Assembly (NCBI RefSeq): GCF_018977255.1
Contig: NW_024704742.1
Location: 23,934,001-23,998,000 of the forward strand
Source: Callorhinchus milii
Lineage: Eukaryota
Length of the DNA stretch: 64,000 nucleotides
Direction of reading: 5' to 3'
Position 1 is the stretch's first letter. Every line of letters starts with the position of its first letter. Shown piece after piece: positions 42,282 through 64,000 of this stretch. A model generated the notes under the pieces. It made no database searches, was not told the DNA's origin, and was given only the letters and a program-made list of their open reading frames with translations. A program made the position numbers and the translations under genes.

Positions 42282-42550
42282 TCACTTCATGTCCACGTCG
42301 AAGTCCAGAACAAGCAGCTTTGTTTCCTCAGTCCCATTTCTGCTTCCCACTGCGCAAACAAGCTTTGTGTTCGATGCTCTAATTCGCCACACAACGCCTC
42401 CACTGCCCCCACTTTCCAGTGTAACCAAATTCCGAATGAACTCGCCCGTTTTCAAGTCCCACAGCTTGACAGTCCCATCATCTGAGCTAGTTATCACAAA
42501 GTTCTTGTTGAACTGCAGGCAAGTCACAGCACTCTGATGCTTGTTCGGCC
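42282..42550 (-). CDS. FBXW7: FBXW7 last coding exon (GPNKHQSAVTCLQF...LLVLDFDVDMK*)
   Basis: 269 nt to TGA at 42284-42282; TAG acceptor; C-terminus matches vertebrate FBXW7. Confidence 0.97.
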
Positions 42551-43380
42551 CTAGTGAGGAAATCAAATGAGATTATTAATCACCCAAATGTTCCCCAAAA
42601 AGCAACACATCATTTTACATCATCATCTGAGAGACTACAGAAGAGGCTCAATTGGGCAATTCTTTAGGAGATCAAGTTAGATACATGGAATTTATCTAAT
42701 TAGCTGTTGATTTTTACATATATATATATATTAATATAAATATATATTACACAGGATGGCCAAAAAGTCATTATAACTACGCTATTATCTAAAAAAAACA
42801 TCATTTCTTTAAGACTTATTAGGCATTATAATGGTATTATGACTTTTTGATCACACTGTAAATATGCATATATGTGTGTACACAAATTATTTTTGAGGGG
42901 TTTTGAATAACATCTTTAACATATTTAGTCATTTGTAAATAAACCTCACTACATTTCCTAATCAATAGGCAGCAATGAATGGAGATTCTTTTGTGAATCA
43001 TGCTGAACACTGCATGCCTCCAAACCCAATACAAAATGCTTTCCTTCACTGTTCCTTTGTGTTATTCTAACTTAAATGATTGGGTTTCCAAAATCCATGC
43101 TTGAGTGCTTTACCCCAATAAATAATAATTGTTGCAACTGAAATATAGCCCATAATGTTGAGATGTTGTAAAGAGCTTTGCAGGAAATTGCCCTGAAGGA
43201 TAGTGGGTATGTATTTGAAGTCATCTTGCACACAGTAATGATCACAAACAGCTAAGAAGCGAATGACTAATCTGGAGAATATTGGTCAGTACATCAGAAC
43301 GAAACTTCATTTTAGAAATAGTGTCACAGGTCTTTAATGTTCACCCGATCAAGCCTCGGGTTAGTCTCACCCAAAGGATG

Positions 43381-44262
43381 ACAACAATAAAATTACATTT
43401 GTATAGTGCCTTTCAATAGCTAATTCAATCATTAAATGCTCCTACAGAATTGGGAGGAGGTCCCAAGGCACTGGACAGTCAGTGTTTCGGTCCCGAGCTG
43501 GGGGTCAGGATTGGGGAGGGTGGAAGGCAGGGAGGGAGGGAAGCGGGGTGATCGAAAGCACGGTCGAAGAGGAGGGTCTTGAGATGGGTCTTGAAGGAGG
43601 CAAGGGAGGGGGGGAGGCGGAGGGACTGTGGGATGGAGTTCCAGAGGGTAGGCGCAGAGTGGCAGAAGGCCTGCCCGCTAATGGTGAGGGGGGTGAGGTG
43701 GGGGACGTGAAGCAGGCTGGAACCCACTGAGCGGAGGGAGCGGGCAGGATGGTAGAGGGTTAGGAGGTCTCAGAGCAAGGTCATGGAGGGCTTTGAAGGT
43801 GAGGACTAGGATCATGAACTGTATCCTCTGTGTGATGGGAAGCCAGTGGAGTTGGGCGAGGATGGGGGTGATAGGGTCACGGAGCCTGGCGCGGGAGAGG
43901 ACACGGGTTGCAGAGTTCTGGATGATCTGCAGCCTAAGGAGGAAAGAGCTGGGGAGGCCGACAAGCAAGGAGTTTGCATAGTCAAGCCTTGATGTTATGA
44001 ATGAGTATATGAGGGTTTCAGCGGCCTGTGGTGCGAGACAGTGGCAAAGCTGGGCGATGTTGCAGAGATGGGGAAAAGCAGAATAGATCATGGTACAGAT
44101 TTGGGGCAGAAAGGATAGTTGAGAGTAAAACAAGACACCAAGGTTCCGGATTGGAGTGTGTAACCATGGACGGTGATGCTGTCAGCGCCTGAGGTGAGGA
44201 GGCACTGACGGGAGCCAATCAGGAGGGCCTCGGTCTTGTTGACGTTCAACTGAAGAAAGTTA
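43381..44262 (-). mobile_element. L2 LINE 3' fragment in the last FBXW7 intron
   Basis: AETLIYSFITSRLDYANSLLVGLP...QNSATRVL...ITPILAQLHWLPITQRIQF and AFCHSAPTLWNSIP...FKTHLKTLLF are L2 ORF2 C-terminal motifs; GTT-like tail. Confidence 0.9.
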
Positions 44263-45276
44263 ACACTGCACTGTCAGCACACCTGGTTCTGCACTGAAGT
44301 ATCAACCTCGACACGCTTGCTACTGAAGTGCATTCTTCAACTGCCTCTCTGATAATTACGGTGAGGTTGCTTCAAGGGTTATTCAAACGCATCTCTTTTC
44401 CCATCTCTACACATGGTGTTGGGTTCAACATACTAATTCTCCACTGCTGAGTTTAGCATTTCAAGCAGGCAAATTTAAAAACTGAGGCCTCTGTGAAACA
44501 CGTTATTGTCTCCAAAGATGGCAGAGGTGAACATGCATAAACAGGGAGAGTAAACTAGAGAACAAATGCTCCTTGCTATCGGGTGTAGTGTATCCATCGA
44601 GCACTCAGTTTTACTTAACTAAGCGTGAAAAGAAAATCACTGCTAGTGAGATTGAACCATTATTGCAATCACAAATCTACATTCCTGACTTCCCATTGCC
44701 ACTTTGAAAGCTTGCATGTATTGCAGAATTTTAGTTTATGATACATTAGCAATATAAAGAATTACTATCCAGAACATTTTGCCATCATACAGCTATTTAG
44801 AGATTACACTTGTAGTAAAATGTCCTGATTATCTTTTTTAAAAAGTAGGAACATAGTGAAAGAGCTGAGGTTTAGAGGGTAGGACAACACTAAGACTGAA
44901 AAGTGCAGCAGAGATGCAAGTCAAAGAGAAGTGATCAGGATACACCAAGCTTGGGTTTTAAAAGCCTGCAGATAGAATGAGGAAGGGACAAGTGAGAAAA
45001 ATACAGAATTCCAGTTAATATCCCTAAATATTGAATCTAATCAAAATGGAAGTTGCTTTTTCCTTGCACATGTATGACCGTGGATGGAGGTTGTGCTAAA
45101 TTACTATGATGCTTTGAAATTGGACCTGGGAAGTTTAACCATCAAAATGTGTTCCAAATAATCAGCATCAAGTAATATATTATACAAGCTTGGGTAAAGT
45201 GACTTCAGTTCATCAAGCCTTGGCCTTCTAAATACAGGTTTGCTGTAGAAAAAAATATGAGCTTTTTCAAACTCAC

Positions 45277-45487
45277 CTTGTAACGTTTGTAAACACTGTC
45301 CTGTTTTGATGTCCCAGATTTTTACTGTGGAATCTGCATTTCCAGAGACTAGGATATTGTCCTTGAGTTCCATTCCACTTGTTAATGACTGGTGTCCTGT
45401 TAACGTGTGAATACAATTCCCAGTTTCCACATCCCATACACGAATAGAGGTATCAAGTGAACCACTTACTACATGGATACCATCAAA
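45277..45487 (-). CDS. FBXW7: FBXW7 exon 10, WD40 ([25 protein letters not shown]...GQCLQTLQ)
   Basis: 211 nt; TAG acceptor; donor G|GTGAGT. Confidence 0.97.
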
Positions 45488-46295
45488 CTAAGGGTAGAGG
45501 GAGGAGGAAAAACACAGAAAATTTCCTTTTAGCCTTGTGCATTTCTAAATTATTCTCTCAGTTGCAGTTTTACTAGTATCAGAACAGGCAACAGTAAAAT
45601 TCACTGGCATGATTTAGACACTGTGTTTAACCAATGCTGGATTTCATAATGTGTACAGCAAAGCACCTTGCGGTTTCCACCTACCAGTTACATTAGAACA
45701 GTCTAATCAATCTGCATTCCTTTAACTGCTAGATTTCTCATTGCAACTCATTAAATAGCTAATTCAATCATTAAATGCTCCTACAGATTTTGATTTTTTT
45801 CTTCTTCTGGTTTTATTTCATTAGTTGAGAGACTTAAAACAGCATATTTAATGATAGTATTAAATAGGTATGGTATTCATGCCTCAAACCACAATAAATG
45901 AAATAGGATCTATTTCAGCTCTGTGCAATGGTGAATACAAGCACAGCTTTAATTGATACCTGTACCGGTACATTGCAAAAGTAGTTCTGAAAAGATTCCT
46001 GGTACACTTTGAGATCTAAAAAGAAGCCGCTTGTCTAATCATCTGTCACTATTTGCTGCCTACTGTTGTGCAATCTTCAATAAATTGAAGAGCAACTGGC
46101 AGGGTATTCAACCACCACTTTCCACTCTCTTCTTCCCTAATTGAGTGCAAGGTTTGCTGAATGTTCATCGGAACAGAACATTTTCTCACTAACGAAATCA
46201 ACCAGTGAAACTAAGTTTCAAATTTTATTTTCAAAATGAAATCAGACTGATAGGTTTTAAAAACAGGATTCCGATTCAACACTCCATTTGCTTAC

Positions 46296-46521
46296 CTGCA
46301 ATGAATAGACCCGATTGGTGTGTCCCTGTAGTGTATGTAGACAGGTTTCCGTTTCTGGGTCCCACACCTTAACCATGAAATCATACGCTCCACTGACAAC
46401 TCTTCGGCCATCGTATTGGACACATCGCACTGCTGCTACGTGACCCATTAACACATGTAAACACTGTCCTGATTCAATGTCCCAGACACGAAGAGTAGCA
46501 TCTCTAGACCCGCTCACAACC
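46296..46521 (-). CDS. FBXW7: FBXW7 exon 9, WD40 ([20 protein letters not shown]...[10 protein letters not shown])
   Basis: 226 nt; TAG acceptor; donor CAG|GTAAGC; R479 and R505 equivalents intact. Confidence 0.97.
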
Positions 46522-46698
46522 CTACAATAACATAAAGACAAGCGTCATAGAAACAGGGGCACAATAGGAAAAAGCAGCCTTTGAAACAACACAAATCTCT
46601 CCCACCTTAACTGCTTCAAATTATAAGTTAACGTTTAGTGTAGACACTTCCTCCCAATTTTCAAGAATTTATCATTTCAATAAAAAGCAGAGACTTAC

Positions 46699-46880
46699 CT
46701 GTTTTCATGGAGGTGCATGCAGCGCACAGTCGAGGTATGGCCATATAGTGTGTGAATACATTCCCCAGAATCAGCATTCCAAACTTTCAATGTTCGGTCT
46801 GTTGATCCACTGATGATGATATTGCCCCTCATTTGGGATGACCAGACACCACCCGTATGTCCTACTAATGTCCTTAAACA
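46699..46880 (-). CDS. FBXW7: FBXW7 exon 8, WD40 ([61 protein letters not shown])
   Basis: 182 nt; CAG acceptor; donor AG|GTAAGT; contains the R465-equivalent (STVRCM). Confidence 0.96.
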
Positions 46881-49800
46881 CTGAAAACGCAGGATAAAAT
46901 AGTATTAGCAAATTATGAAATGAGTGCTTGCAACCACAGAAATATCAGTGTAACGATGCACCATCAATCCATATCAAATTAATTTTAAATCAAAAGCACT
47001 TACATTCAGAGTTACTTTTCAGTAACTGCATGATTGCTTGAGTGAGTCAGCAGTTGAAGGGGATGAACACTTAAAAGCCCATTGAAAGTACGATGAGAGT
47101 GTCAAATTTCCACTCACTTGAACCAACTTGGCATGATGTACTTTCACATCTGGAAACTGCACTTAAATCTATGCCAGGCTGATGCAAGTGACTTTACTGA
47201 CTGCAACCTCTTAATTGTCTCATATGAACTGAGTTTGGGCACTTTCCACTCAGCTCCACGAAGGGGTAAGATTGCAGCACACAACCCTTCATTTGGAATT
47301 CTTGTTCAATGGCCACAGGATAGCAATTGTGGTAAATGGAAAACACTGCATTATTGCAATGGGGGGTGGGGGGAGGAAGAGAGAAAGGTGCTCTTTCAAG
47401 GATAGGGCAAAGTCAAGGAAACTTTACTTAACATTTTGCCTGATCTGAAAGTGATAAATGCTGTCACCGGGTGCATGAAATGGGAGTACATTTCCCAAGA
47501 GCAACAGCTTATTTAATGAGCAAACACGGGTCGTGTGCTGGTGAGAGAGGAAACATGCTTGCAAAAAGTACAAGATTCCTTAACAAAGCACATTCCACAA
47601 AGTTCTCAAAGCTGATGTCATGAAAGGCCTCAAATATCTCAGCTAAGTAAGGTATGAACCAATTTATGACCGGTTTAAGATAGGAAATCTCTGCATGAAT
47701 TTCCTTTAGAAAGTAAGGGATTTGAAATCCCTTAGAATGCTCTTATCTCAAAAGGTCAGTCATTCAGGTAAAAGGTGTTTTGAGAGCGATTATATGCCTC
47801 ACATATTTTAACTACATTGCTCTTGAGGAAAGGAATTTAGGTTGAGCATTTTACAAAGACAAGGCAACTCTGAATGACAATTATTTTGATATCCTTCAAT
47901 AATAAATTCAAGCCATTTGAAACAGAAAGGCAGAAAATGTTCCCACAGTATAAAAACATTCATTCAGAACTCGATATACAAAACACATTGGATTCTGGAA
48001 AGGAAATGTGATCTCTGCTGCAGGCAGTTTTCTCCAATATGGTTTCTCTACCTACTGATGAATGCATTTGCAGTGAGAAAAGGAAAGTCTCTGCAGGGAA
48101 ATGATACTATGCTGTTTATTTAATCTCATACCAAGAAACATTCAGACAGCCAGAATGATTCCATTCATCCACCTGACTAATCTTTTAAACACTGGGATTT
48201 TTAAAAGTCACAAATATCAGAATTACATTATAACCTCAGACATTACAACCAAGTGAAATCCCACTCTCTCCTCAATTCACACCTATTACTCAGAGCAAAA
48301 AGAACCCAAAGCCATTGTCACAGTGCTACGTTTTACTATTTCTGCCAAAACATTCGGAAGTGAGAAGCTCCAATAAAACATTGTGTGACATTCAGATTAA
48401 TATTGCTGCATTTCTGTAGATTTGTTAGTTTGTTCAGTTTAGAAAATGCATAACATGTACAGTGAGTGCAACCTCATGATAATGCGCCTCAATATAACTC
48501 AGATTTGCTCATAAAAAAACCCTCAAAAAAAAAATGTGTAGGCATCCAATTTGCTTCAAAATGCTGCCTAGCCCTTCGTGTGATAAAGAATGGCTGATTT
48601 CCTGGGCATCAGGTTGCTGCTGATACCAGCTCTGATGGTGAAAGCATGATATGGAAAACCGATTTTTAAATAAAAGTATGAGAAGCTGGCTAGTGTTTTG
48701 AAACAAGCTGGAGTTCTGCGAGCGCGTGTAGTGAATGTGGAAGTGCTGGCCTTGTTATAGCACTGGTTGGGATTTTATGGACCCCACCACTGGGTCGTAA
48801 TGGAGCTGCACGTATTAGGAACATCATAGGAAATGTATCATTACACTCGAGGAAATGACATTGAATTCCAGGCTGCTGCTTACATATTGGATAATTTCAC
48901 CTCTGCGAAGCAGCACATCAGAGGAGTTTGATAAAAGATTACTGTACATTCCTGCTGCACAGCTCTGACATGCAGCATTTGTGGCATTCAAAAAATGTCG
49001 GGCCAGGTCACGTGGGTCAATATCCAATGCAGCACAGAACCCCAAAGCTAACATGTGGAGTTAGTTACAATGATAGGAAACGTCTGCTCTAATGCTCAGT
49101 CAAAGTGTACTAAAATAGATTATTTTTTTACCATATTCCAGAGATCGGAGATATCGCTAACATAAGAAACCTACATTTTAGTCTATTTTTAATCTTGCAG
49201 ACATTCATCAAGTGATAACCACATGAAGCTAGAAGAGACTTCTACCATCAGAGGTTTCCACTGGCGGCAGCAGCAGGCCACTTACAAGGTGGCTGCATTA
49301 CATTGCTCAATTCCTTACGTGATTCAAATTAGAAATGTAGTTTGGAGTGGACGACACTTCCATTAAAATCCTCTCCATGTTACACTGTAAACTTCAAAGA
49401 GGTGAATCATAAGAGTACTAATGATAGAAATCATAGTAATTTCAGGTCGGGGAAAGCCACTTGCCCATGTGTATGCTAGCTCCTCAGTAAAGCTATTACC
49501 TAAATCTAATTTCCCTACAGACCCACAATAAACAAAATATGTCTTTCTGTCCTGGAGCATAAAAAAGACAGAGCTTGCTCGCCTGATCAATGCTGACCAG
49601 CAATCAAACACGGGGTGTGCATGTTGGCACTTTCAGATGTTATCAGTAATTAACTGTGTAGGTTGAACCTCTGGTGTCAGTCCACCTGTTTGCTTCACCG
49701 CTTTGAAGTTTACAGTTTAACATTGAGACGATTTCCAGTTTTTTTTTAGATAGCACGCTTTCGTAATTCACGATTTTTCTCTGAAGCATTCCTTCCCACA

Positions 49801-50419
49801 GCCCTCTGCCTTCTCATTTAGTTCATAATGTGCAGAACATAAAAATCAAGTATTCCTTTTTATGGGTCTTCAGTGAGATGTTTGGTTTTAAAAATACATT
49901 ACCCTCCTTTGCATTTTTTAATTATTTCATCTGAATGACTTGTTCTTTCACACAATGTCAATTTTATTGTAGCAGGCAAGAGTTCTGATCTCAAATCACT
50001 GCCTGCACAGGGACTGCCAATTTCACATTTTCAATTTAGGAAAGAGATCTGAAAGCATGAGGGGTACAGTAGTCCGACCGAGGGACTTTCACAGCAACCA
50101 ATACAGCAAAGCCGCCTCTGCTAACTTCCACAGGCGTTGCTTTGGATTTATTTTTAATCCCAAGAGTAGTTCAGCATTTTATGGACTTGTTCGCCAGATT
50201 AGAAACTGCTGAAGACAAATGTGCTTTTGCTCACCTACGCCTTTCCTTTTGGCAGAAAGGGTGTGGACTCGAAACAGCAGGGGCCAGGAACTGGAACATT
50301 TTTCATGTCACCCATTCTATTTTTAAACATTTTTGTTTTTCTGAACAATAATTCCTCCCGACAAATTGCTGGACTTGAAAATTCCTGGACAGGAAGTGAG
50401 TGAAATTAAAGGAACTCAC

Positions 50420-50533
50420 CTTTCCTGTAACTGCCGACCATACTTTCAGAGTGTTGTCATCAGACCCACTGACAATTCGGTTACCACAGAACTGCAGGCA
50501 CGTGATCACGTGATCATCATGACCTTTCAGCAC
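50420..50533 (-). CDS. FBXW7: FBXW7 exon 7, first WD40 repeat (VLKGHDDHVITCLQFCGNRIVSGSDDNTLKVWSAVTGK)
   Basis: 114 nt; CAGCAG acceptor; donor AAG|GTGAGT. Confidence 0.96.
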
Positions 50534-50833
50534 CTGCTGAGAGAGAACATCCGACACTGTACATGAAACTCACGTCAAGTTACCATCCTTCACCTGATAG
50601 AACCAAGGAAGGTCACATTTAAAAAATATATAATATCCATAATATCCAAACTGCCTCAACGGCACTAACTGGAGCTTTTTATTTAAGTCTGTTCTCTTTC
50701 AGCCCGTGGTTCCAAGCTTAATGCGCCAGAACTAGAAATGAATCCTTTACATATCTTTCAGTATTGTTCTACAAACTGGCAATCCCAACAAGTTCCTAAA
50801 ATTTCGGCTTCTGAATCCCTTTTCAGACGGTAC

Positions 50834-50970
50834 CTTGGGCGTTTTTAGATCTCCGCAACGCCAGTTAGTGTCTATTCTGTGCTGTCGAATGTAGGCGCTT
50901 TTCCAAGGGCTGTGAGCAAAACCTGGTTTGACCACTTTCCTCCTTTTGATGTATACAGGTTCATCAATTC
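50834..50970 (-). CDS. FBXW7: FBXW7 exon 6, linker (GIDEPVYIKRRKVVKPGFAHSPWKSAYIRQHRIDTNWRCGDLKTPK)
   Basis: 137 nt; T-rich CAG acceptor; donor AAG|GTACCG. Confidence 0.95.
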
Positions 50971-51198
50971 CTGCAAAAAAAAATGCATGCAGTTGCACAC
51001 CAAATTCCCAGAAAGCATTAAAATAAAACTTGCAGTAATGTTTGACTTTAAGAATAGTTTTTAAATATAAAACCTTGGGAACAGTATTAGAGTTGACTTC
51101 ATTCAATCTAGTTTTCCCCCCAATATTCACGACCGCCTACGTGATGCATATTCTAATGTATTACAAAAAGGTGCATGTAGTTAATACCATACCCTTAC

Positions 51199-51322
51199 CT
51201 TCCTCTTTGCACTTTTCTCTCCAAAGCAGGTTATCTTCAGCCAGTATCCTCCAGTAGCGGCAGGTTTGGGCTGCTTGCAGCAGGTCCTTAGGCTCCAGGA
51301 ATGAGAGAACATACAGCGCCAG
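51199..51322 (-). CDS. FBXW7: FBXW7 exon 5, F-box (LALYVLSFLEPKDLLQAAQTCRYWRILAEDNLLWREKCKEE)
   Basis: 124 nt; TAG acceptor; donor G|GTAAGG. Confidence 0.96.
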
Positions 51323-51965
51323 CTACGATGCAGAAAAATTGCAAAAATGAATGCTGTTAGTGCATTTGTACAATGGTAAGAACATTTTAAAAAGCCCTTT
51401 AGCACAAATATAAACTGAACAAAAGCAGTGACTCTAAATCAGGGTGGTACTTGCTTCCACCCCCCCACCCCATCCCTCATGCAATAGGCAATGAGAATGG
51501 AATTTTTGTCACTGTTGCTAGTGCAGCTAAGAGCATAACACCGTTTAAAAGAAATCAGCTAAGTATTTGAAGGGGAATAATGAAAAATAATGCAAGCAGG
51601 AATTGGAAGTATTGTACATAGATCCAATGGCAGAGTCAACACAAGAATTGGCTCAATAGCTTCCTTCTGTGTAATATTGATTCAAAGCAGTGTAAAGAAT
51701 CATCCATTTTGTCATGGACCCTCACACAAATGGAATTAACTCAACTTTCAAAAGCCAATGGTGCACGTTTGTGTGAACAACTTCATAAGCAATTTTATTC
51801 TATGTGTATCACAGAGCCTTATTTTAGAAAGATAATTACAATTTTTTTTAAAGCTTTGCTTATCGCTTGTTAACACGCAATGTGCTAAACTGCCAGCGCT
51901 GCATAAAACAGCTGCAAGGAAACCTTTTAATTCTGGACATATTTTCATCATTCAGAAAACCTCAC

Positions 51966-52100
51966 CTCTTTTGGGAGAAGTGATATAAAATCTCGCTGGA
52001 ACTGGGGTTCAATAACTTGCATCATGTGTTTCACTTGCGTTGGTTCGCAGCTGTCAATTAATTCATCTAATGCAAGTAATCTTTCTGGTCCGCTCCAACT
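51966..52100 (-). CDS. FBXW7: FBXW7 exon 4, dimerisation domain and start of F-box (SWSGPERLLALDELIDSCEPTQVKHMMQVIEPQFQRDFISLLPKE)
   Basis: 135 nt; TAG acceptor; donor GAG|GTGAGG. Confidence 0.96.
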
Positions 52101-55029
52101 CTAGATATCAAAGAAACAACACAGAAGTTTAGTGAGATTTTAGTGAAGGTCCAAATGCTAATATTCAACACATTTAACACTGGAGTTGGAAGGACAGTCT
52201 TAGTTTTGTGAAACATAAGCAGATTTCCAGTCCTGGGGCTCAGTGTGACACAGGAGAGCATTATTTTATAAGTAACCGGGAATCAAAGTGTCAGTTGGGA
52301 AAAGACTTTGAAACGGAATAAGAGTATTGCGGAGTAGGACAAGCTTTGCAATTCATGTTGCGCTTAGATTTAAGAAATCCGTGAAGTCCACAGGCATAAA
52401 GAGTTGGGTGTGTACAGAGACAATTAGCAAAGAGGGAGTGCCATTTCTTTATTCTTTGTCCACTTCATGGCTGTTTAGAGGTTGTTACTGTATGCAAACT
52501 GCCTGCTGCTTCCGCGTATAAATACACAGTTGCTACACTTCACACCAAGTAATGTAGGCCACTTTATGTTGCTTCCCAAGTCACTGGGGTCTGCTACCTA
52601 TTGTATAAATTGTTATAGGTGGAATTGCAGTTGTCCTTAATTATATACTGAACAAGCCGAGAATCTTGTGAAGCACTTTGAGATATTTCAACAAAGTGAA
52701 AAGGTGCAATATCAAATGCACTATTATTAAATAATTACCTTTTCAATGCTTGTTAGGTACATAATTGAGGAAAGGGGGGGGGGGAAGGACATCTTAAAGC
52801 ACTTTGTAAGGATTAACTGTAAAGTGTAGTGACTCTGTACTTTGTAGGCGAATTTAACGAGGTAAGAATGTCACTTTCATTACTAGAACAGGCGAGGCAA
52901 TAACATGGCGTTCTCGGAATAGTGCCCCAGCAGAAGGGGCTGATAAAAGGAGTCCTGCACTTTCAGAACAGGGGGAAGGGATCAAATTGCTTTAAGAAAA
53001 CACAAATAGGCTGAATTTTTTTTTAAAAGACAGCGCAATGCCAGCATGAAGGATTATAGCTGCATTACCTAATGTCAAAACCCCCAAAGTCTCTGGGGGA
53101 AGGGGAAAGTTATTGTGCCAGTCAGTGAGAAGGCCAATATTTCCCTAACGCATCCCTTACATTATTGTGCAGATTTCCAGCAACAGTGGCCATGGAGGAT
53201 GACACAGAATAAAGAAAAATACTTGGCTATTATTTAACCTCTGGTGTATTTTCTTATACTTATTTTTGTATTTGTCCTGTTCCATGTGATTTTTTTTTAA
53301 GTGTGTATTTCTTTATCTCCATTTCCTTTCCACTTTTGAAACAATTTTTTTTTCATGGTTTTGTCCCAGAACTCGTCATAGTACAAAATATTTATTAAAC
53401 TCGGTGTAATTTCATTGGGGTTCACAGTCAAGGCAATTCTAACATTTTAGCAAATTCTTCCATCTGATCAGTTGTCTGAATTTCTAAGAACATTTTTAGT
53501 CTGTCAGAAAGATTCTAATGAGGCTAATAACCAACCAAAGTAATCCTCTCCATCCGTGGATTATTGACATAAAAGTAGAATGGCAGAAGATTCATTTTTC
53601 CTCCTGGAACAGGTCACAAATTTAATCAATTTATCCTTCTGTATCTCTGGCTTACTGTGTGCTCATGTTTTATGCACAGTAGTCAAATCTTTAAGAGACA
53701 GATTTTAAAATGACCTTTATAGCCTCCATCTCAAACCAATCCAAATCTAATCTAGTCTCATTTTGAGACTAGATTTCTCTCATGAAGCTCCACGTAAAAA
53801 TATAGACACCCACATGAATTGCACAACTTATTTTCTTTGGTATGACATTGTGACTATTTTGAAAATGACGAGGGTTTTATTCCTGGTTTGAAAAAGGAAT
53901 AATTTTGCCCTAATCATTTCCCTCCGCTTTCCTCTCTGTAGCTCCAGTTATTTGGAAGTATCTGAGTCATGGACTTCTGATGGTTAACTTCCATGCAGCT
54001 TAGCTTCCTGACTGACAAGAAATCATTGCCACAGCTCTGATGACCTCTTTGCATAATTTTAAGATGATGGTGTGCTCCAGTAAATTTAGTTGCTTGGCTG
54101 AGAAAGCGATAAAACCTCACAATAGGATGAGAGTAAATATAAGCTCATGTTTTTTTATTCTGATCCTTTGGCTTGAAATTCCAAGATCCAAAGTTAAGAG
54201 GATGCTTATTTTCATTTCTTATTATTTACTAAGTTTATCATCTGAATCAGTCCTAGTGTACTGAGATCACTAGTTGATTTCAAGTTTTATGTGAAATTAA
54301 AACATTCTAAGAAGATCATTGCAGACTTAACGTAACATCTTACTTAAGATTAAAAAACAAGGATACAGATCCACTACAGACCAATTTTGTGCACGAATGT
54401 GTAAACAGCAGAATGTGTAAAATAAATTGAAGATGAGGATCTGGACAGATCCACAAACTCACAATTGTGCCATTTCACACAATCCATGTGAGAATACTGA
54501 TGGTCAGGTCTTTTTAGAAAATCATTAAACCTGTGTTTCCAAGAACATTTTAGAGGATACTGTTTTTAAGTGAGTCTTACAGAATCAAAACCAATCATTA
54601 CAAAGGATTGAGAATAACCATGAATACCATAGTTTTGACTGAGGTCGTCTTTTCTATTCAGATCCCTTAGGATCCATGTTCCCATGGCACCAGGCTTTTA
54701 TTTACTGTAGGAATAGAAAGCATTTGTGGCCCAGACTACAAGGTGCATCTGACATGCCTGATCTGCTGTTACCTGGAATGGGACTGTGTGTAGATGGAAA
54801 ATTAGCAAAACAATGATACTGACAGTTGGTTGGGTGAGATAATGAAGATACCCTTTTCGAAAACAAATTCCCAAATCCCAAAGGTATGTCCACCCACTGG
54901 TATCTTGAGTTCTCCACACCCACTCAATTTCAAAACTTCTGTTCAACACAAACATTCTGTTCTGAATAAACATGCTTGAAATGTTAACCTAACTTTTCCC
55001 TTCAGATTTCATCAACTAGTTGGCATTTC

Positions 55030-55540
55030 CTGGGGAATGGTCGTTGGAATAACCAAATTTGGATGTGATGAAGGTGTGGATGAGGGCTTCAGCATCCTGG
55101 AACAAAAGGTAGTGGCAGAGATGCAGTGGAAATGAGAGAAAGTCGAGGCAGTGAGTGCCCAGATGGAGAGATTGAACGACGAACAAAACATTGAAGTCCT
55201 ATGCGGGCTCTGAGGTGGAGTGAACATTTGTGCAGGTTGTTGTGGTCAGTGCCCGAGGTGAGAAGGCGAAAGGAGGCAAGCAGGAAAGCCTCGGTCTTGT
55301 TGACATTGAACTGCAAAAAGATTGAATTCATTCAGAAACAAGAAAAGGACAGAACCGTGGAGGTAGACCGGGGCGGAGAGATGGTGGAGAAGGACAGGCT
55401 GGTCAATAGTGTTTATGGTGGCAGAAAGGAGAACAAGGCAACGGGAGAACCAGTCGCAGATGGAAAGAATGTTATTGGTGATTAACCAGGGCAGAATATG
55501 GATTAAAGGACGTGAAGAGGGAGCAGTGGGAGAAGACACC
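55030..55540 (-). mobile_element. Degenerate L2 ORF2 fragment in an FBXW7 intron
   Basis: LVLLSATINTIDQPVLLHHL and FLQFNVNKTEAFL motifs; shares GCCTCGGTCTTGTTGAC.TT.AACTG with ~44227-44252. Confidence 0.75.
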
Positions 55541-56666
55541 CTCCTGTACCTGGCCCGATTATGTGAATCTTGGCAAGTAATTCAATGGCCAGCCAAGCTG
55601 ATCCCATCTTTCCCAAACGCATTGCACAGAAATCCTAACATGGCCACTTCCAGGTTATAAAGTACCCACCTAATCGTACCTACTCAGAAAGCCAGCATAT
55701 AAAAAAATAAATTAAAATGACTTCTTTATGAGTGTCCACTTCTACTCTGAATTCATTTGAATGTCCTTTCAAGGACAATGTTTTTGTTTTTGCCCTTTTT
55801 CTCCCTCTTCTCCTGTAGGTGCTGACTCATGCGTAGATAAATAATCCTTACATCTGATATTTGATACAATGCCTTTTACGTCAGGAGAATGTCTCAAAGC
55901 ACTTCTTGGAATATACTGTAAAACGTAGTGGCTGGATTTTGTAGGTAAGCAAGACGGTTCCAAGGACCCTGATTATTCCCTGCTGTGCAGCATCTCAAAT
56001 AAAATTGCACAGAACTGTAAAACTGCTTCAAGCACGTGAATTTGAATGCAGCAAACAAATTTACTAAGATGGTTTGGAGTGCATTCAGAAAATAAGGGTC
56101 TGTGTTGCACATCACAAAAACAGCTTCACCAAATGACAGGAAATAGAGACGTGCTATACAGAATACTGCATTTGCCCTGAATCTTATCCTGTGTCATCAG
56201 GGAGCAGTTTGTTTTTGATAATTGCTTGAAGCCTGGCTCCATTGAAGCAATAGAGACACGGTACATTGTTTTACCTCAGATGTCAGCTTCGTTATCAGCA
56301 AAGGCAGGGGAGGACAATTTTCAAGTCAACCCAGAAACAAATATCTCAATGCAAATAAAGCCTACTATTCTTTAAAAATCTGTGTAGAGTCGCAAGAACA
56401 CAGAAACCTATTTAAAGGCATTCATAAGAATGCATCAACTCTTGACCGCCAGTACTTTTGTGCTCCTAAGACACATGAAAATAGCATGCTACAGGACTGG
56501 CAAATGTTATCCTTTATTAAATCTGTTGTTAACCAATGCAGTCGAAAACAAAGCATGTGTAGCAACCAAATACAGATACAGGTGTTTTGTGACATGGGCA
56601 CGACCCACCTTCAGGATGCCTCCATGCAATGACTCTACCAGATTATGCCAGGAAAATGCTTCTCAC

Positions 56667-56808
56667 CTGAAAAGTTCTCAGCCAGTCCTGGAGTTCTGGA
56701 GGAGGCTGGACCGATGTGATCCGGCGCCGCTGCTGCCCTTGCCCATTTGCAGCTCTCAGGTCCCCAAAGGTGGTTGGTGTTGCTGAACATGGAACTAGCC
56801 CTGGCGTG
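56667..56808 (-). CDS. FBXW7: FBXW7 exon 3 (TPGLVPCSATPTTFGDLRAANGQGQQRRRITSVQPPPELQDWLRTFQ)
   Basis: 142 nt; CAGCAG acceptor; donor CAG|GTGAGA. Confidence 0.95.
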
Positions 56809-59356
56809 CTGCTGACAAAAGGTGGAATAAGTCAAATACAAACTTTCACTACATGAACTGTTAACATTCACAAGTCGATGACCACTGCCACCTGGGACAA
56901 GTGGATCTTGGGAGTTGTAGAAGACAAAGTCTAATTCTTTGCTTCATTTTCACATATGAAACAAAAGCTGCTCGCTTTCATACGGCAGAAAAATCAAAGA
57001 GCATTGCTTCCATGATCAGTTGTCGTTCAATACGCCTTGAAGCCTTTAGGATTATGTGGTACTAAGAAATGGTGGAATGCAATTCAATCCTTAACAATAT
57101 CGAATTCCTATCTCATTTTGAGAAATCACCAAGCAAAATCCACAAGGGTATGGGGGAAGGGAATCAGAATGATGTCAGAAAGAATTGTCTCTGGATCACT
57201 GTTGGATGCTTCTGGTAGCTGTTTAGAGCATCACTGATGGAGGTTTCAGACCAGGGGCAAGATGAGCGTCTGTAATGCAGGAAAAAATATTCTGATGGCA
57301 AATATCTTATAAAGTAATACCCACAAATCCAATCTGACAACTGCATCAACTGAACAGCAGGTGAACTGATAGGATGCAATTGATCATAACACTACATTTC
57401 CAACAGTAGCTGTCAAGTGAATATAGTCTCAATACTAAAGATGTAAACAAGACAAAAATATTTTGTTTTAAAAAGTTATTTTCTGATGGGAACATATGGC
57501 TCTATAGAAATCTAGGTTATTTTGGAATAAAGTGTCAAGACACAGATCATAACTGTGAGTTAGTAAAAATTGATAATTGATTTAAAAAAATCAGAATGCT
57601 GAAAACTCATTTTCGTTCCTAGAATTGAATTGGAACAGTTCAGCAGCCTTCCCACTACAAATCACAATGTCAAAGTCTTTAAAATCATCTCTAGGTCTTC
57701 TCCGATGTACTCAGATGTCTTACAAATTATAAGGATCCTTTGAGCGTGCTTAGTCAAGCATGCTCTCTGCAGCTCTGATCAGCGTGATGACCAGCAGTGA
57801 AGGGGTGGAGCAGCTCAGAACAGTCATCACACCCACATCCGAGCAAGCCTGTCAGCTATTCTGATGGAGAATCCTGCTGAATACACATACTGTGATTAAA
57901 GTGAACTGCCTTAATCTAGTTTTTAATAACATGATACACAAGGGGTGTGCATGGCTGTGAGGGCACATTCTTCAGTGAACTACTCTACAGTACTTACAGA
58001 CACACCAATCTGAAGTTATGTTCCAGAGCACCATGGGGCAAGCATGAGAAACATGCAAATATCAACCAGGCTACTTAAAATTTGCTTTTTGAGTAGCCTT
58101 TTGGGTAGTGCATTAACTTGATTCTTTAAACTGGACCAATGCAAATGGGTTTGAAACTGTTTTCAGTTTATATTCAAAATTGCCTTTTTTTTGTGCAAAA
58201 AAAATAGATAAACAGCATTACAAGTTTTGCCCACAAAATACAGTCACTATAATTTACAGTACATCTTGTGAAGTACTTTGAGATATCAGTGATGTGATAA
58301 GGTGCTATATTAAATGCAAGGATTATCATTATACCAAAGAAAAAAATGGATTTAAGCAGCTGGAAATTATCAAAAATAGCCTTCCTTAACAGCTTCCAAA
58401 AATTGGTATTTTGTTAATATACTGTACTAAATCTCGGTTATAACTTATCACATTTACAGCTCGTTACACTAAATGGATAGAATGTGTTTACGCAGTGCCA
58501 CACATCACAGAATGTTATGTCACTGTACAAGAAATCCAAATTTTGTTTTTATTCAACACTAGGCAATTCAAAGAAACATTTTCGGGGGTGGGGAAGAGAA
58601 TTTAAATAAAAGACTGATAATCACAAAATGCAAGAAAAACAGTCATATGAATGAATCAAAAAGGAACATGGCATGGTAACTCACGAAGGTCCCACACATC
58701 CATTTTGTGCTGCAATATCATATCTTGCCAATGCTGCTCTGCCACGTATTGAGCGTTCAATTAATGCTTTACAGTGAAGTGTCTTATCTTTAAGTACATG
58801 GCAGCTGAGGACATGGTTGATGATAATGTTAACACTTTAGCAAATCATTTTTTTTGCCAATAATGAAACCTTTATTACGAACTATGGAAACAGAAGCGAT
58901 GAAAACAATTTCCCATGAGGCCTGGTCTCAAGTCTATCAGTTAGGATCAGTTGCCATGTCAGTGGTAGCTGCTTGTTAACTGATGTGAAGGATTCTACCC
59001 TGTGGCCTGCACTGCCAGATTATAATTGGACAAAAATTAGTCCGATTTCCATGCTCAGGATTCTATGCCAAAAATCTGCCACTTTTCAGCCCTCTGTATA
59101 TGCCAACAAGAAGCACAGACAAAGTGCGAGACTGAGGGAATAATAACAAGCAAACAAATAATTGGGCTACGTACTTATTTGTGTCAATGAGAAAAAAATC
59201 CTCTTTAAGACTCAAAGCTGTCATGAGATTCTGTCCAATTCACCCCCCCCCCCCCCACCATCCGCACCCAAACAGGAAACATTGTAATTTACATAGCAGG
59301 ATGGAAAACCTTCTTCTGGCCTGAAATAACTATTGCCTCTAAAATGTTGGTTTTAC

Positions 59357-59439: not shown

Positions 59440-61284
59440 CTGAAAAGAGAAAAAAAACAAAAGATCACTTTTTAAAAAAAATAACATTGATCTTTGATTT
59501 ATATACACAACCAAAGTTCATTCCTAGCTAAATCTTTGTAGCAGCAAATAAATCTAAGCTGATTTGGAGTTTAGGTGGTATCATACTAACTGGTTTCATA
59601 AGCAGTAGCTACTCCTGCTGCATACTAAGCAAACCATCTTTTGCGTGGATTAAGTGTTTGAGAACCATGGTAGCATTTCTGAAAATATTCATTGATGTTT
59701 TTATATTCATTGATACTAAAATACATGTGGACATGACTGTTTTTTTGCATCTACTGCCTTTACAGTTCTATTCATAACAGCTTCAGCATTGCATATCATA
59801 CTTGTACGTATTACATGATTAACATCAAAGCTGGTCCTTCAAAGAAAAATCATTACTCATAGGATCAGATAAAACAGCGGGCAACCTGAGAAACTGGACT
59901 GAATAAATTATTTTCATGGATTTTTTGCATATTAAACTAAGGAAAATTTTATTTTAGATATTTTACAAGTAAAGCACACTATTTAGCACCCAGTGTAAAT
60001 GCAAACATCTAAACATGCAGTGCATCTCATCTCAAGTAACATCGATCTGGAAAAAAGTTTCAAGCAGATTCATAAAAAGTCACAGTTAAATATTAATACT
60101 ATACTGTACAGATCTAGGCTCAAAAACACAATTGTAAAATAACCATATTTTTAAAATACACAATCAAGAGATTCTATAGCTGAGCCCCGCTGTTCAGTAC
60201 ATCTCAGGAACTGAAAGCTTTATTATTAAAGGATTTGTAATGTTTAAAATGGGTTTAATTGAGCATCTAACGTGTCAGTTTTCCAGTATAAATTAACTTA
60301 CTGAATTAGTTCTGCTTTTTCTCATTGACTCACAAAAATGCTAAGATAACCTTTAGTGGATCATATTGTACCCTGAGAATCTAAGCCAAGATAAAGCGGT
60401 CTTTATGGAAATTTACTGTATTCAATAATTTTATACCCACACCTGATGTCAGATCAAGTCATATATGATACGAAGACAGATTCAAATGTCAGTACGGCAG
60501 CAAATCATTCCATCAACCCAAAGCGGAATATATATGACAGTGTCAGCCAAAATACCATTATTTTGGATCATCAGTAAGATGGATCACATTACTATAGAAT
60601 ATTAAATATCCCGGTCATTTACATTCCTTTGTCTAAGAGCCTTGTAATGTTTAGCCTCTGCCTCTTAATCTTATCAGGAGTACTGTTAATTTCAATGATC
60701 ATAATCAAGAGGTGGGGGGGGGGGAGGGAAAAGTGGTAGAAGTGGCCATTGCAATCATGGATTTTACATAGCAAAATGTATTGACGTTGCTGGGACGTTG
60801 GGACCACCCTAATTAAAATCCAGCGAGCGAATTTCTGCAGCAGAAACATCTATTTGGTAGTTGATAACCCTCTGTAACGTATGCACCGAATGGGGACAGC
60901 TTAGAAATGCTTTCTGCTTCTGCGATCCGAGTGACCCTTTGGGGGGAGGGGGGGGGGGGGGGGGGTCCTGGTGCACTGTTGTTACAGGGAGACCCCGGAG
61001 TGAATTCTCTCCCCCTCTCTACACTCCAGATGAGACTAAATCTAATCGGCAGCGTGTGTCTGGTGGAGCTTTACACCGAGCAAAGACGTGGGTGCCATTC
61101 ATTTCTGAGGACAACAAGGGTGGAGAGTGATTTCACCAGCATCCTCTCCAACCCCCCCCCACCCCCCCACTGCCCCAAACTGTCGTGGAATCTAACCCCT
61201 GTTATTTGCTGAGCTGCGACACATTTTTGGGAGCTGCTGTGATTGCCGATCAACCTGTGGAGTCACAGGTTGATCAACTACAAC

Positions 61285-61383: not shown

Positions 61384-61820
61384 TTAAGCGCACACTGCAG
61401 GCACCTCGACCACAGGGACACGAAGCCTCAGTCACACATTGGGGATGGAGGAGGGAGGAGGAGGAGGAAGAAAATCAACTGCATCATTTTGGTACAAGGT
61501 TAATGTCACTCTGGAACTACCATCATCACATCACACGCCTCTCTCTCTCTCTCTCTCTCCTCTCTCTCTATGTGATGTGCTTCTGCGCTCAAAAAATCGC
61601 CCCTTTTTGGGGGGGGAAAGGGGTGGGGGGGGTGTCCACTGTAGTGGAGATCGGCAAACCCGCGTCTATACATGTAACATAACAATAATAATAATAATAA
61701 TAAAACATAATCCATCCACGCACTCCTCTGCTGTGCTCTTAAACAAATTAAATTAGCCGCAGCCCCGAGCTAACAGGTAGCACTGAGCAAAACATGATCG
61801 TTTGGCTTCGGTTTCTAAAA

Positions 61821-62379
61821 CACACACAGTCACACACACACACACACAGACACACACACACACACAGACACACACACACAGACAGACACACACACAGACA
61901 CACACAGACACACACACACACACACACAGACACACACACACACAGACACACACACACACAGACACACACACACAGACAGACCCACACACAGACACACACA
62001 GACACAGACACACACACACACAGACACACACACACAGACAGACACACACACAGACACACACAGACACAGACACACACACACACAGACACACACACACAGA
62101 CACACACACACACACACAGACACACACACACACACACACACACAGACAGACACACACACACAGACACACACACACACAGACACACACACACACAGACAGA
62201 CAGACACACACACACACACACACACACAGAGACACACACAGACACACACACACAGAGACACACACACACCAGACACACACACACAGACAGACACACACAG
62301 ACACACACACACACACACAGACAGACACACACACACAGAGACACACAGACACACACACACACACAGAGACACAGACACA
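61821..62379. repeat. Long compound (CA)n/(CAGA) microsatellite
   Basis: ~560 bp seen directly; source of the spurious THTH/VCVC ORFs. Confidence 0.98.
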
Positions 62380-62640
62380 GCACCATGAGCAGGCAGCACA
62401 GTGAAGCCAGTGTTGCTGCGCTCGCCTCCCACATCGATCCACGGCATCAGAGCCCCTGAAAGCCACAGCAACCGGGGGGGGGGGGGGGGGGGGGGGGGGG
62501 TCTGATCCCATCTCACCCCATCTGAAAGTCCAGCTGAACCGAGGCAGCCCCGAGCCCCGAGCCCGAGCCCCGGGGGTGGGGGATAGGTGGGGGTTGCAAA
62601 TCGCCGCCCCCGGTGTCGGCGGCTGCGGGTGTGCACTTAC

Positions 62641-62679
62641 TTTAAAAAAGATCATTTTTAAAGTGCCGTAGAAGCCCAT
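62641..62679 (-). CDS. FBXW7: FBXW7 beta-type first exon, coding part ([13 protein letters not shown])
   Basis: Matches the C-terminal end of the FBXW7-beta-specific exon (human [13 protein letters not shown]); strong Kozak context AAGATGG; donor AAA|GTAAGT at 62640-62635; in-frame upstream TGA at 62791-62793. Confidence 0.9.
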
Positions 62680-62773
62680 CTTTCCCGCTGCGCTGCTCTC
62701 AGTTCCCCGCCCGCTCGGCTGATCGCTGCTGACAGTGGGTCCCTCCAGGTGAGTCCTGCGCCGGCCCCGCTGG

Positions 62774-62793
62774 GGACATGCTCGGGCACGTCA
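62774..62793. promoter_or_regulatory. Candidate p53 response element (GGACATGCTC GGGCACGTCA, no spacer)
   Basis: One perfect RRRCWWGYYY half-site plus an adjacent 8/10 half-site; FBXW7-beta is a known p53 target in mammals. Confidence 0.7.
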
Positions 62794-63052
62794 AGCAATC
62801 GGGGAGAGGAGGCGCCTGGTGTGTCCGCGCAGCCCCACAGACCCCCTCCGCCCTCACCCCCACAGCCCGGAGAGCCTCAGACAGTCATCCACCAGTGCTG
62901 CAGGGAGGGGAGGGAGAGGGGAGGGAGGGGAGGGAGGGGAGGAGGGGAGGGAGGGGGAGCCAGGAAACCCTGCCTCGCCAGAGTCTCCAATGAACAGATT
63001 CCTCTCTGTCTGGCAGATGGATCAAATTACACTGCACTCCACCCCCTGCCTT

Positions 63053-63182: not shown

Positions 63183-63639
63183 AAAAAACACAGCAATGGC
63201 ACAGTCCAGTTCCCAACAATGTGAGCTGCACATCAATTAGACGAACAAAGCCCCGGGGAGCAAAAGGGGTAACCAAACGGAGGAAGTAACACAGCCCCGA
63301 TTCGTACGATTTAATCCAACCCCCACCCCCCCACCACACACACACACACACACCCCTTAAAAGAAAAGTGCTTGTATGTTGCGTGCGGGAGGAATGTTTG
63401 GAATCGGTAAAGGGGACGTGAGATCTGGTCTCGTTCGTCAGAAGGCGACAAGAATTCCCCCCCTTTCCTCTTCTCTACGTTGCTTCTGATGCGGTTGAGA
63501 AGGAGACACTGCAAATGAAGGCTGTTTTTGTGTGTGTGTGTTGTGTGTGTGTGTGTGTGTTGCCTCTGTTGGTTCGAGCTTCTGATAGAATTGCATCTGC
63601 TTTGCTTCATTGCAAATAACAGGCAGGTGGTATGTATGT

Positions 63640-64000
63640 GGGAGAGAGATGGAGAGAGAGGGAGAGAGATGGAGAGAGGGGAGGGAGAGAGATGGAGGGA
63701 GGGAGGGAGAGAGATGGAGAGAGGGAGGGAGAGAGATGGAGAGAGGGAGGGAGAGAGATGGAGGGAGGGAGGGAGGGAGGGAGAGAGTGATGGAGAGAGG
63801 GAGGGGGAGAGAGATAGAGGGAGCGAGAGAGAGATAGAGAGAGAGGGAGAGAGAGGATGGAGGGAGGGGAGGGAGGGAGGGATATGGAGAGAGGGAGGGA
63901 GGGAGAGAGATGGAGGGAGGGAGAGAGATGGAGAGAGGGAGGAGGGAGTGAGAGAGAGAGAGGGAGTGAGATGGAGGGAGGGAGGGAGAGAGAGGGAGGG
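63640..64000. repeat. Polypurine (GA/GGGA/GATG) low-complexity tract
   Basis: Seen directly; runs to the window end. Confidence 0.95.

What the first reader, a model, noticed from the sequence alone, without database searches (positions are those of the whole stretch)
62774..62793. Zero-spacer p53 response element in the FBXW7-beta first exon, possibly conserved across jawed vertebrates
Seen: GGACATGCTC|GGGCACGTCA, a perfect RRRCWWGYYY half-site abutting an 8/10 half-site, ~100 nt 5' of the MGFYG start. Established: mammalian FBXW7-beta (hCDC4b) is a direct p53 target with a binding site in exon 1b. Inference: read on the minus strand these bases spell L-T-C-P-S-M-S, matching the recalled human beta peptide L-T-C-L-S-M-S. 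This is the best-matching block upstream of MGFYG even though it is out of frame here, so the constraint is probably on DNA (p53 binding) rather than protein. That would date the p53->FBXW7-beta link to the gnathostome ancestor.
Basis: partly seen in the sequence, partly recalled or inferred. Interest (0 to 1): 0.75.

Follow-up and report, generated by a model that had tools for sequence, protein, structure and literature searches.

The report
Shark copy of human p53 switch
A shark-like fish carries, at the start of its FBXW7 tumour-suppressor gene, a 20-letter p53 docking site that matches the known human one at 19 of 20 letters, so this already known damage switch is at least as old as jawed vertebrates.

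Summary
The 20-mer is real and is the ortholog of the known human FBXW7-beta p53 element. It matches a published human site at 19 of 20 bases. The one change (A/G) keeps the consensus but swaps Leu for Pro. Position and orientation match: its ATG lies 100 nt before the MGFYG start here and 117 nt before it in amniotes. The human site lies under a p63 ChIP peak, and published p53 peak offsets agree with it. The motif alone is not rare in 64 kb; orthology carries the case. DNA-level constraint is favoured: the element is out of frame here, holds an in-frame stop, and keeps all six free third-codon bases. Limits: no binding or expression data for this fish. Three related species are only bounded (at least 16-17 of 20). 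No frog, teleost or lamprey DNA was obtained, and two waterfowl models hint at decay. The link is known in mammals and zebrafish, and fly archipelago is also a p53 target, so the date is a minimum. New angle: the amniote membrane-anchored N-terminus seems to have grown over this older element.

The parts
62774..62793 (.). Zero-spacer p53-family response element, ortholog of the human FBXW7-beta site
   Evidence: 19/20 identical; the only difference, base 11, is R in both
62774..62783 (.). Perfect half-site (10/10, CATG core), identical to human
62784..62793 (.). 8/10 half-site (CACG core, last base A); both off-consensus bases shared with human
62791..62793 (-). TGA stop in the FBXW7 reading frame, inside the element; no in-frame ATG between it and 62679
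62699..62779 (-). Out-of-frame upstream ORF, 26 codons, opened by the ATG in the element's CATG core (A at -3); ends 19 nt before the main ATG; real only if the transcript includes it
   Evidence: transcript extent not shown
62641..62679 (-). Coding part of the FBXW7-beta first exon ([13 protein letters not shown]), followed by a GTAAGT donor at 62640-62635
   Evidence: identical to shark and skate beta N-termini
62629..62794 (-). Block alignable in three other unnamed species (runs X8, X9, X10); ends at the outer edge of the element
   Evidence: 17-18 other letters, 6 gap letters; 14 differences listed, all in 62686-62764
62401..63000 (.). GC-rich, CpG-retaining region typical of a promoter or first exon
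   Evidence: GC 0.66, CpG obs/exp 0.58-0.65 against 0.38-0.46 at 60001-61200
62787..62793 (-). TGACGTG word formed by the two off-consensus bases (bZIP-like; label recalled, function untested)
   Evidence: 6 copies in the window; broken by the rat and lacertid lizard residues
59359..59439 (-). First shared FBXW7 exon (MKRKLD...)
42285..56810 (-). Remaining FBXW7 coding exons (F-box, WD40 repeats), intact frames
   Evidence: 531 of 536 residues identical to P0212

Best explanation
This is the orthologous p53-family response element of the FBXW7-beta promoter/first exon in a cartilaginous fish, inherited from the last common ancestor of jawed vertebrates and kept by selection on the DNA. Most likely mechanism: after DNA damage or other stress, a p53 tetramer binds the two abutting half-sites near the beta start, raises beta transcription, and more SCF-FBXW7 degrades cyclin E, MYC and Notch to help arrest the cycle. 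Shown here: the sequence, its gene context, and its identity and position relative to the human site. Shown by others: binding near this site and induction in human, binding near the Fbxw7 start and induction in mouse, p53-dependent induction in zebrafish. Inferred: binding and induction in this fish, and that the element lies inside the transcript as in mammals.
For: 19/20 identity to the human site; the null reaches this in 2 of 2,000,000 draws. Same orientation, and its ATG lies 100 nt versus 117 nt before MGFYG. The human site is a 'primary p53+p63RE' under a peak seen in 16 p63 datasets. Human FBXW7 has p53 peaks in 20 of 28 datasets and mouse in 9 of 9; 19 of the 20 human offsets lie at -209 to -383 (median -303), while the element lies at -318 to -338 from the start implied. 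Out of frame and holding an in-frame stop here. All six free third-codon bases are identical (p about 0.001-0.03 under three neutral settings), and the single change is non-synonymous but consensus-neutral. The three residue changes seen in non-avian amniotes (P/L, T/A, L/P) map to R-to-R, Y-to-Y and an already off-consensus base. Zebrafish fbxw7 rises after irradiation (log2FC 0.97) but not in p53-null fish (-0.19). All three p53-family genes are reported for a cartilaginous fish (PMC4743058).
Against: No binding, reporter or expression data for any cartilaginous fish. The motif alone is common at 64 kb scale. In three related species 3-4 mismatches are unplaced and could fall in the element; in the worst case for X9/X10 (3) it is no better conserved than its flank (p 0.52), and the three share the same listed differences, so they count as one lineage. 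Two waterfowl models read P-P-V-P-S-M-S and P-P-R-P-S-M-S, implying a weakened second half-site if the models are right. The reference start for the p53 offsets was not checked. In non-avian amniotes the 37 residues after the element are as conserved as the element.
Confidence: 0.82

Rival explanations
1. The site is an orthologous p53-family element, but the factor that keeps it in this lineage is p63 or p73 (epithelial or neural expression of beta), not stress-induced p53.
For: The human site is classed p53+p63 and lies under a peak in 16 p63 datasets; all three paralogs are reported for a cartilaginous fish; beta is described as brain-enriched.
Against: Induction depends on p53 in zebrafish and mouse; p53 peaks in 20 of 28 human and 9 of 9 mouse datasets. 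The two roles are not exclusive.
Confidence: 0.1
2. The conservation is translational: the ATG in the CATG core opens a conserved upstream ORF (or, in amniotes, part of the protein), and the p53 likeness rides along.
For: Good start context (A at -3); the uORF stop is kept and both deletions fall just after it in runs X8-X10; birds start beta at this ATG (11 of 99 beta sequences); the amniote peptide downstream is nearly invariant.
Against: 14 of the 20 bases lie upstream of the ATG yet 13 of them match human; the uORF shows 6 non-synonymous versus 4 synonymous codon changes in X8-X10; the uORF peptide matches the amniote peptide poorly after M-S. It may be a second role rather than the cause.
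Confidence: 0.04
3. Passive retention: slow sequence evolution in sharks has preserved a 5' region as a whole, without selection on these 20 bases.
For: Short remnants match elsewhere (G-T-E-S; C-Q); the block aligns at about 86-89% among related species.
Against: The 79 nt next to the element already carry 14 substitutions and 6 gap letters between related species, and the alignment stops at the element's outer edge, whereas human and shark differ at 1 of 20.
Confidence: 0.03
4. Chance or convergent motif unrelated to the human site.
For: Similar-quality motifs appear in 27-93% of shuffled windows.
Against: Shared off-consensus bases, position, orientation and 19/20 identity (2 of 2,000,000).
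Confidence: 0.01

Closest known systems
Human FBXW7-beta (hCDC4b) exon 1b p53 response element, hg19 chr4:153273772-153273791 (PMC4470028 supplement; PMC7735755 supplement)
   Same: 19 of 20 bases, zero spacer, the same two off-consensus bases, same orientation, similar distance to MGFYG.
   Different: Base 11 is G here and A in human. Here it is non-coding for FBXW7 (out of frame, in-frame stop); in mammals, crocodilians, turtles and lizards it also encodes part of the beta N-terminus. Function here untested. Whether it is the very site mapped by Kimura 2003 was not checked (paper not held).
Zebrafish fbxw7 as a p53-induced gene (PMC12145846)
   Same: p53-dependent induction and a role in p53-dependent arrest outside mammals.
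   Different: Gene-level RNA data and crispants; the passages and supplement rows I saw give no element or isoform.
Drosophila archipelago p53 response element (PMC2828916)
   Same: Direct p53 activation of the FBXW7 ortholog, leading to cyclin E degradation.
   Different: 21 bp with a 1-nt spacer, upstream of the transcription start; no evidence that it is homologous to this element.

Membership tests
Canonical p53 response element | Two RRRCWWGYYY half-sites with intact C and G cores | tested here: met
   10/10 and 8/10; four core bases intact
Canonical p53 response element | No spacer (functional sites are mostly spacerless, PMC5511239) | tested here: met
Canonical p53 response element | Lies near a transcription start | tested here: inconclusive
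Canonical p53 response element | Bound by p53 and drives p53-dependent transcription in this organism | not testable with these tools
   needs EMSA, reporter, ChIP or RNA data
Ortholog of the human FBXW7-beta element | Same gene and same first exon | tested here: met
   FBXW7 exons and MGFYG exon
Ortholog of the human FBXW7-beta element | Sequence identity beyond what the consensus forces | tested here: met
   19/20; null 2 of 2,000,000
Ortholog of the human FBXW7-beta element | Same position and orientation relative to MGFYG | tested here: met
   100 nt versus 117 nt
Ortholog of the human FBXW7-beta element | Human site lies under p53-family ChIP peaks | tested here: met
   p63 peak with coordinates; p53 offsets consistent, reference start unchecked
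Pan-gnathostome conserved element | Present in other chondrichthyans | tested here: inconclusive
   three unnamed related species align through it with 3-4 unplaced mismatches
Pan-gnathostome conserved element | Present in amphibians, lobe-finned and ray-finned fish | not testable with these tools
   their beta proteins start at MGFYG, so proteins carry no trace; DNA scans found nothing
Pan-gnathostome conserved element | Present in birds | tested here: inconclusive
   M-S of the first half-site kept; two waterfowl models imply a changed second half
Dual-coding element (codons plus binding site) | In frame with the protein | tested here: not met
   out of frame here; met in 24 of 99 beta sequences, all non-avian amniotes

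The most novel reading that the evidence does not exclude
The p53 element is older than the protein it encodes in mammals. In the ancestral state (sharks, skates, coelacanth, lungfish, frogs, most teleost models) beta starts at MGFYG, lacks the hydrophobic anchor, and the element sits in the 5' region, where in this shark its CATG core opens a short out-of-frame ORF. On the amniote stem the frame was fused and extended through the element, creating the membrane-anchored beta isoform; birds then dropped the anchor and start at the element's own ATG. p53 would thus induce a differently located FBXW7 in different vertebrates from one unchanged switch.
Probability: 0.55. Interest if true: 0.6.

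Novelty: new member of a known kind. Interest (0 to 1): 0.4.

Why it matters
p53 elements turn over fast: only 508 mouse peaks overlap the 7,635 human peaks (PMC6755996). A site kept at 19 of 20 bases between human and a shark, suboptimal bases included, marks FBXW7-beta as part of the oldest core of direct p53 targets. That fits zebrafish data that fbxw7 helps p53-dependent arrest. It gives a ready oligo-level test in shark or skate cells and asks why the weaker half-site was never optimised. It does not reveal a new pathway.

Tried and rejected
Protein search with the 50-residue in-frame stretch gave no hit at E up to 0.1; a last-exon search and a beta N-terminus search worked instead. No genome is held for this window. 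Pattern scans for the MGFYG exon in metagenome and prokaryote genome collections found 0 matches, so no orthologous vertebrate DNA was obtained. No RNA holder was listed, and the guessed-RNA run X5 laid 0 contigs, so there is no evidence on expression or on the start site. Kimura 2003, Sionov 2013 and two other papers were not held. A search for p53 with CACG methylation found 0 papers; the idea that a methylated CACG core mimics CATG is recalled only. An overlapping bZIP word (TGACGTG) was considered as the reason for the shared off-consensus bases; rat and lacertid residues break it, so it is kept only as a weak lead. A killifish paralog model has R-A-R upstream of MGFYG: too short to use. 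Alpha and gamma first exons are not in the window. Earlier scan findings: none returned.

Full report
Observation. The 20-mer GGACATGCTC|GGGCACGTCA is at 62774-62793. It scores 10/10 and 8/10 against RRRCWWGYYY with no spacer and intact cores, and is the only 2-mismatch site among 23 matches with up to 3 mismatches (21.7 expected). On its own it is not rare: shuffled windows hold a site this good in 27-93% of 150 shuffles, depending on the criterion. In the 300 nt before the start codon the rate is 17-79 of 20,000, for a region chosen after the fact.

Gene and organism. FBXW7 runs on the minus strand: first coding piece 62679-62641 with a GTAAGT donor, shared exon from 59439, last exon ending at 42285. 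Over 11 exon stretches compared one by one, the window matches shark proteins at 528-531 of 536 residues, skates at 524, and coelacanth, lungfish, frog, bat, chicken and teleosts at 499-512 (12 proteins tested). It is a cartilaginous fish, closest to sharks among those tested; no holocephalan was in that comparison. The element lies in a GC-rich, CpG-retaining stretch. The FBXW7 frame has a stop at 62793-62791, inside the element, and no ATG until 62679. The ATG in the element's core is 100 nt upstream, out of frame, and opens 26 codons ending at 62699.

Orthology to the human site. The PMC4470028 supplement lists the human FBXW7 element at hg19 chr4:153273772-153273791, spacer 0, two mismatches, grade 4. 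It differs from the window only at base 11 (A for G, both purines), and both off-consensus bases are shared. Random consensus-like sites with two mismatches reach 19/20 in 2 of 2,000,000 draws, and nothing else in the window exceeds 14/20. The PMC7735755 supplement lists the same site as a primary p53+p63 element under a peak in 16 p63 datasets, next to the NM_018315 start. The PMC6755996 supplements give p53 peaks at FBXW7 in 20 of 28 human and 9 of 9 mouse datasets. Nineteen of the 20 human offsets lie between -209 and -383, median -303, and the element is at -318 to -338 from the start implied; I did not check that both tables use the same start. In amniote proteins the element's Met lies 39 codons (117 nt) before MGFYG, against 100 nt here.

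DNA or protein constraint. For DNA: the element is non-coding for FBXW7 here. Fourteen bases lie upstream of even the uORF start, and 13 of them match human. All six free third-codon bases match (p 0.001-0.03 under three neutral settings). The single change is Leu/Pro but consensus-neutral. The residue changes in non-avian amniotes map to R-to-R, Y-to-Y and an off-consensus base. The element is the only 6-of-6 block between the window and the amniote extension; windows wholly downstream reach 2-4 of 6. Against: within non-avian amniotes the 37 residues after the element are as conserved as the element (9 distinct sequences), so that group alone does not single it out.

Other species. Contigs of three unnamed species (runs X8, X9, X10) align over 62629-62794 and stop at the element's outer edge; two run on with unlike sequence and the third ends there. 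Fourteen differences are listed, all in 62686-62764, but totals are 17-18, and differences near alignment ends are not listed. The element is therefore at least 16-17 of 20 identical there; at worst this is no better than the flank. The three share the same listed differences and count as one lineage. Of 99 beta-type sequences retrieved (with redundant models), 24 carry [T/A]-C-[P/L]-S-M-S in frame (mammals, crocodilians, turtles, lizards), 11 bird sequences have the M-S start region (9 begin at it, 2 waterfowl models run further upstream), 59 start at MGFYG (sharks, skates, coelacanth, lungfish, frogs, teleosts, one starling model), and 5 are other. The two waterfowl models imply a weakened second half-site, if they are right. 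No frog, teleost or lamprey DNA was obtained, and there is no RNA evidence for this fish.

Mechanism. Most likely (0.82) a p53 tetramer binds the two half-sites near the beta start after stress and raises FBXW7-beta, which degrades cyclin E, MYC and Notch and helps arrest the cycle. Sequence and orthology are shown here; binding near the beta start is shown by others in human and mouse; zebrafish fbxw7 rises after irradiation (log2FC 0.97) but not without p53 (-0.19). Binding and induction in this fish are inferred. Rivals: p63/p73 as the main reader (0.10), uORF-driven conservation (0.04), passive retention (0.03), chance (0.01).

Dating. The element is at least as old as the split between cartilaginous and bony fish (roughly 420-450 million years, recalled). 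The link itself may be older or may have arisen twice: fly archipelago is a direct p53 target through a 21-bp site with a 1-nt spacer.

Boldest reading. A hydrophobic segment (19-residue mean 2.2-2.6) is present in the bat, crocodile, tortoise and lizard N-termini tested and absent from the two birds, shark and coelacanth tested. Beta is described as having a unique transmembrane domain. By parsimony, the amniote anchor arose by reading through an older 5' region and its p53 element, and birds later started at the element's own ATG. This rests on annotated gene models and one genomic sequence (0.55).

Novelty and literature. The human element and the link are known; this is a new member of a known kind. 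Searches (listings) showed no paper on this element in cartilaginous fish, but the library lacks most subscription papers and I had no genome-browser conservation tracks, where it may be plainly visible. Seen as passages plus supplement rows: PMC4470028, PMC6755996, PMC12145846. Supplement rows only: PMC7735755. Passages only: PMC2828916, PMC10474666, PMC5511239, PMC3198437, PMC3046450, PMC5084658, PMC4743058, PMC10111352. Not seen, known only through citations: Kimura 2003, Mao 2004, Matsumoto 2006 and 2011, Sionov 2013, Lane 2011. One large PMC6755996 supplement could not be read and two files were cut; they may bear on mouse-human peak overlap. Interest 0.4.

Noticed in passing
window 62699-62779 (-): Out-of-frame 26-codon ORF from the element's ATG; in runs X8-X10 the stop is kept and both deletions (5 + 1 nt) fall just after it, but 6 of 10 changed codons are non-synonymous.
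   Followed up: partly
window 62723-62752 (-): The differences listed for X8-X10 move this stretch, read in the uORF frame, towards the amniote and bird peptide around L-P-E-K-G-L-Y-C-Q-R-L, suggesting a second, weaker conserved block. It holds a TGACAG word on the + strand (TALE-homeodomain-like; label recalled).
   Followed up: partly
window 62787-62793 (-): The two off-consensus bases shared with human complete TGACGTG and keep a CpG that one deamination would turn into the ideal CATG core; rat and lacertid residues break the word.
   Followed up: partly
proteins P0163, P0164: Goose and duck models read P-P-R-P-S-M-S and P-P-V-P-S-M-S, hinting that waterfowl kept only one good half-site, or that the models are wrong.
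   Followed up: no
proteins P0127, P0129-P0143, P0238-P0251: Teleosts have a second fbxw7-like gene that also keeps the MGFYG first exon; whether both copies kept the element is open.
   Followed up: no
window 62747-62755 (+): CAG|GTGAGT, a strong splice-donor word on the antisense strand; three of its bases differ in X8-X10, so it is not conserved.
   Followed up: partly
window 61820-62380 and 63620-64000: Long (CA)n-type and GA-rich simple repeats flank the beta first exon.
   Followed up: no
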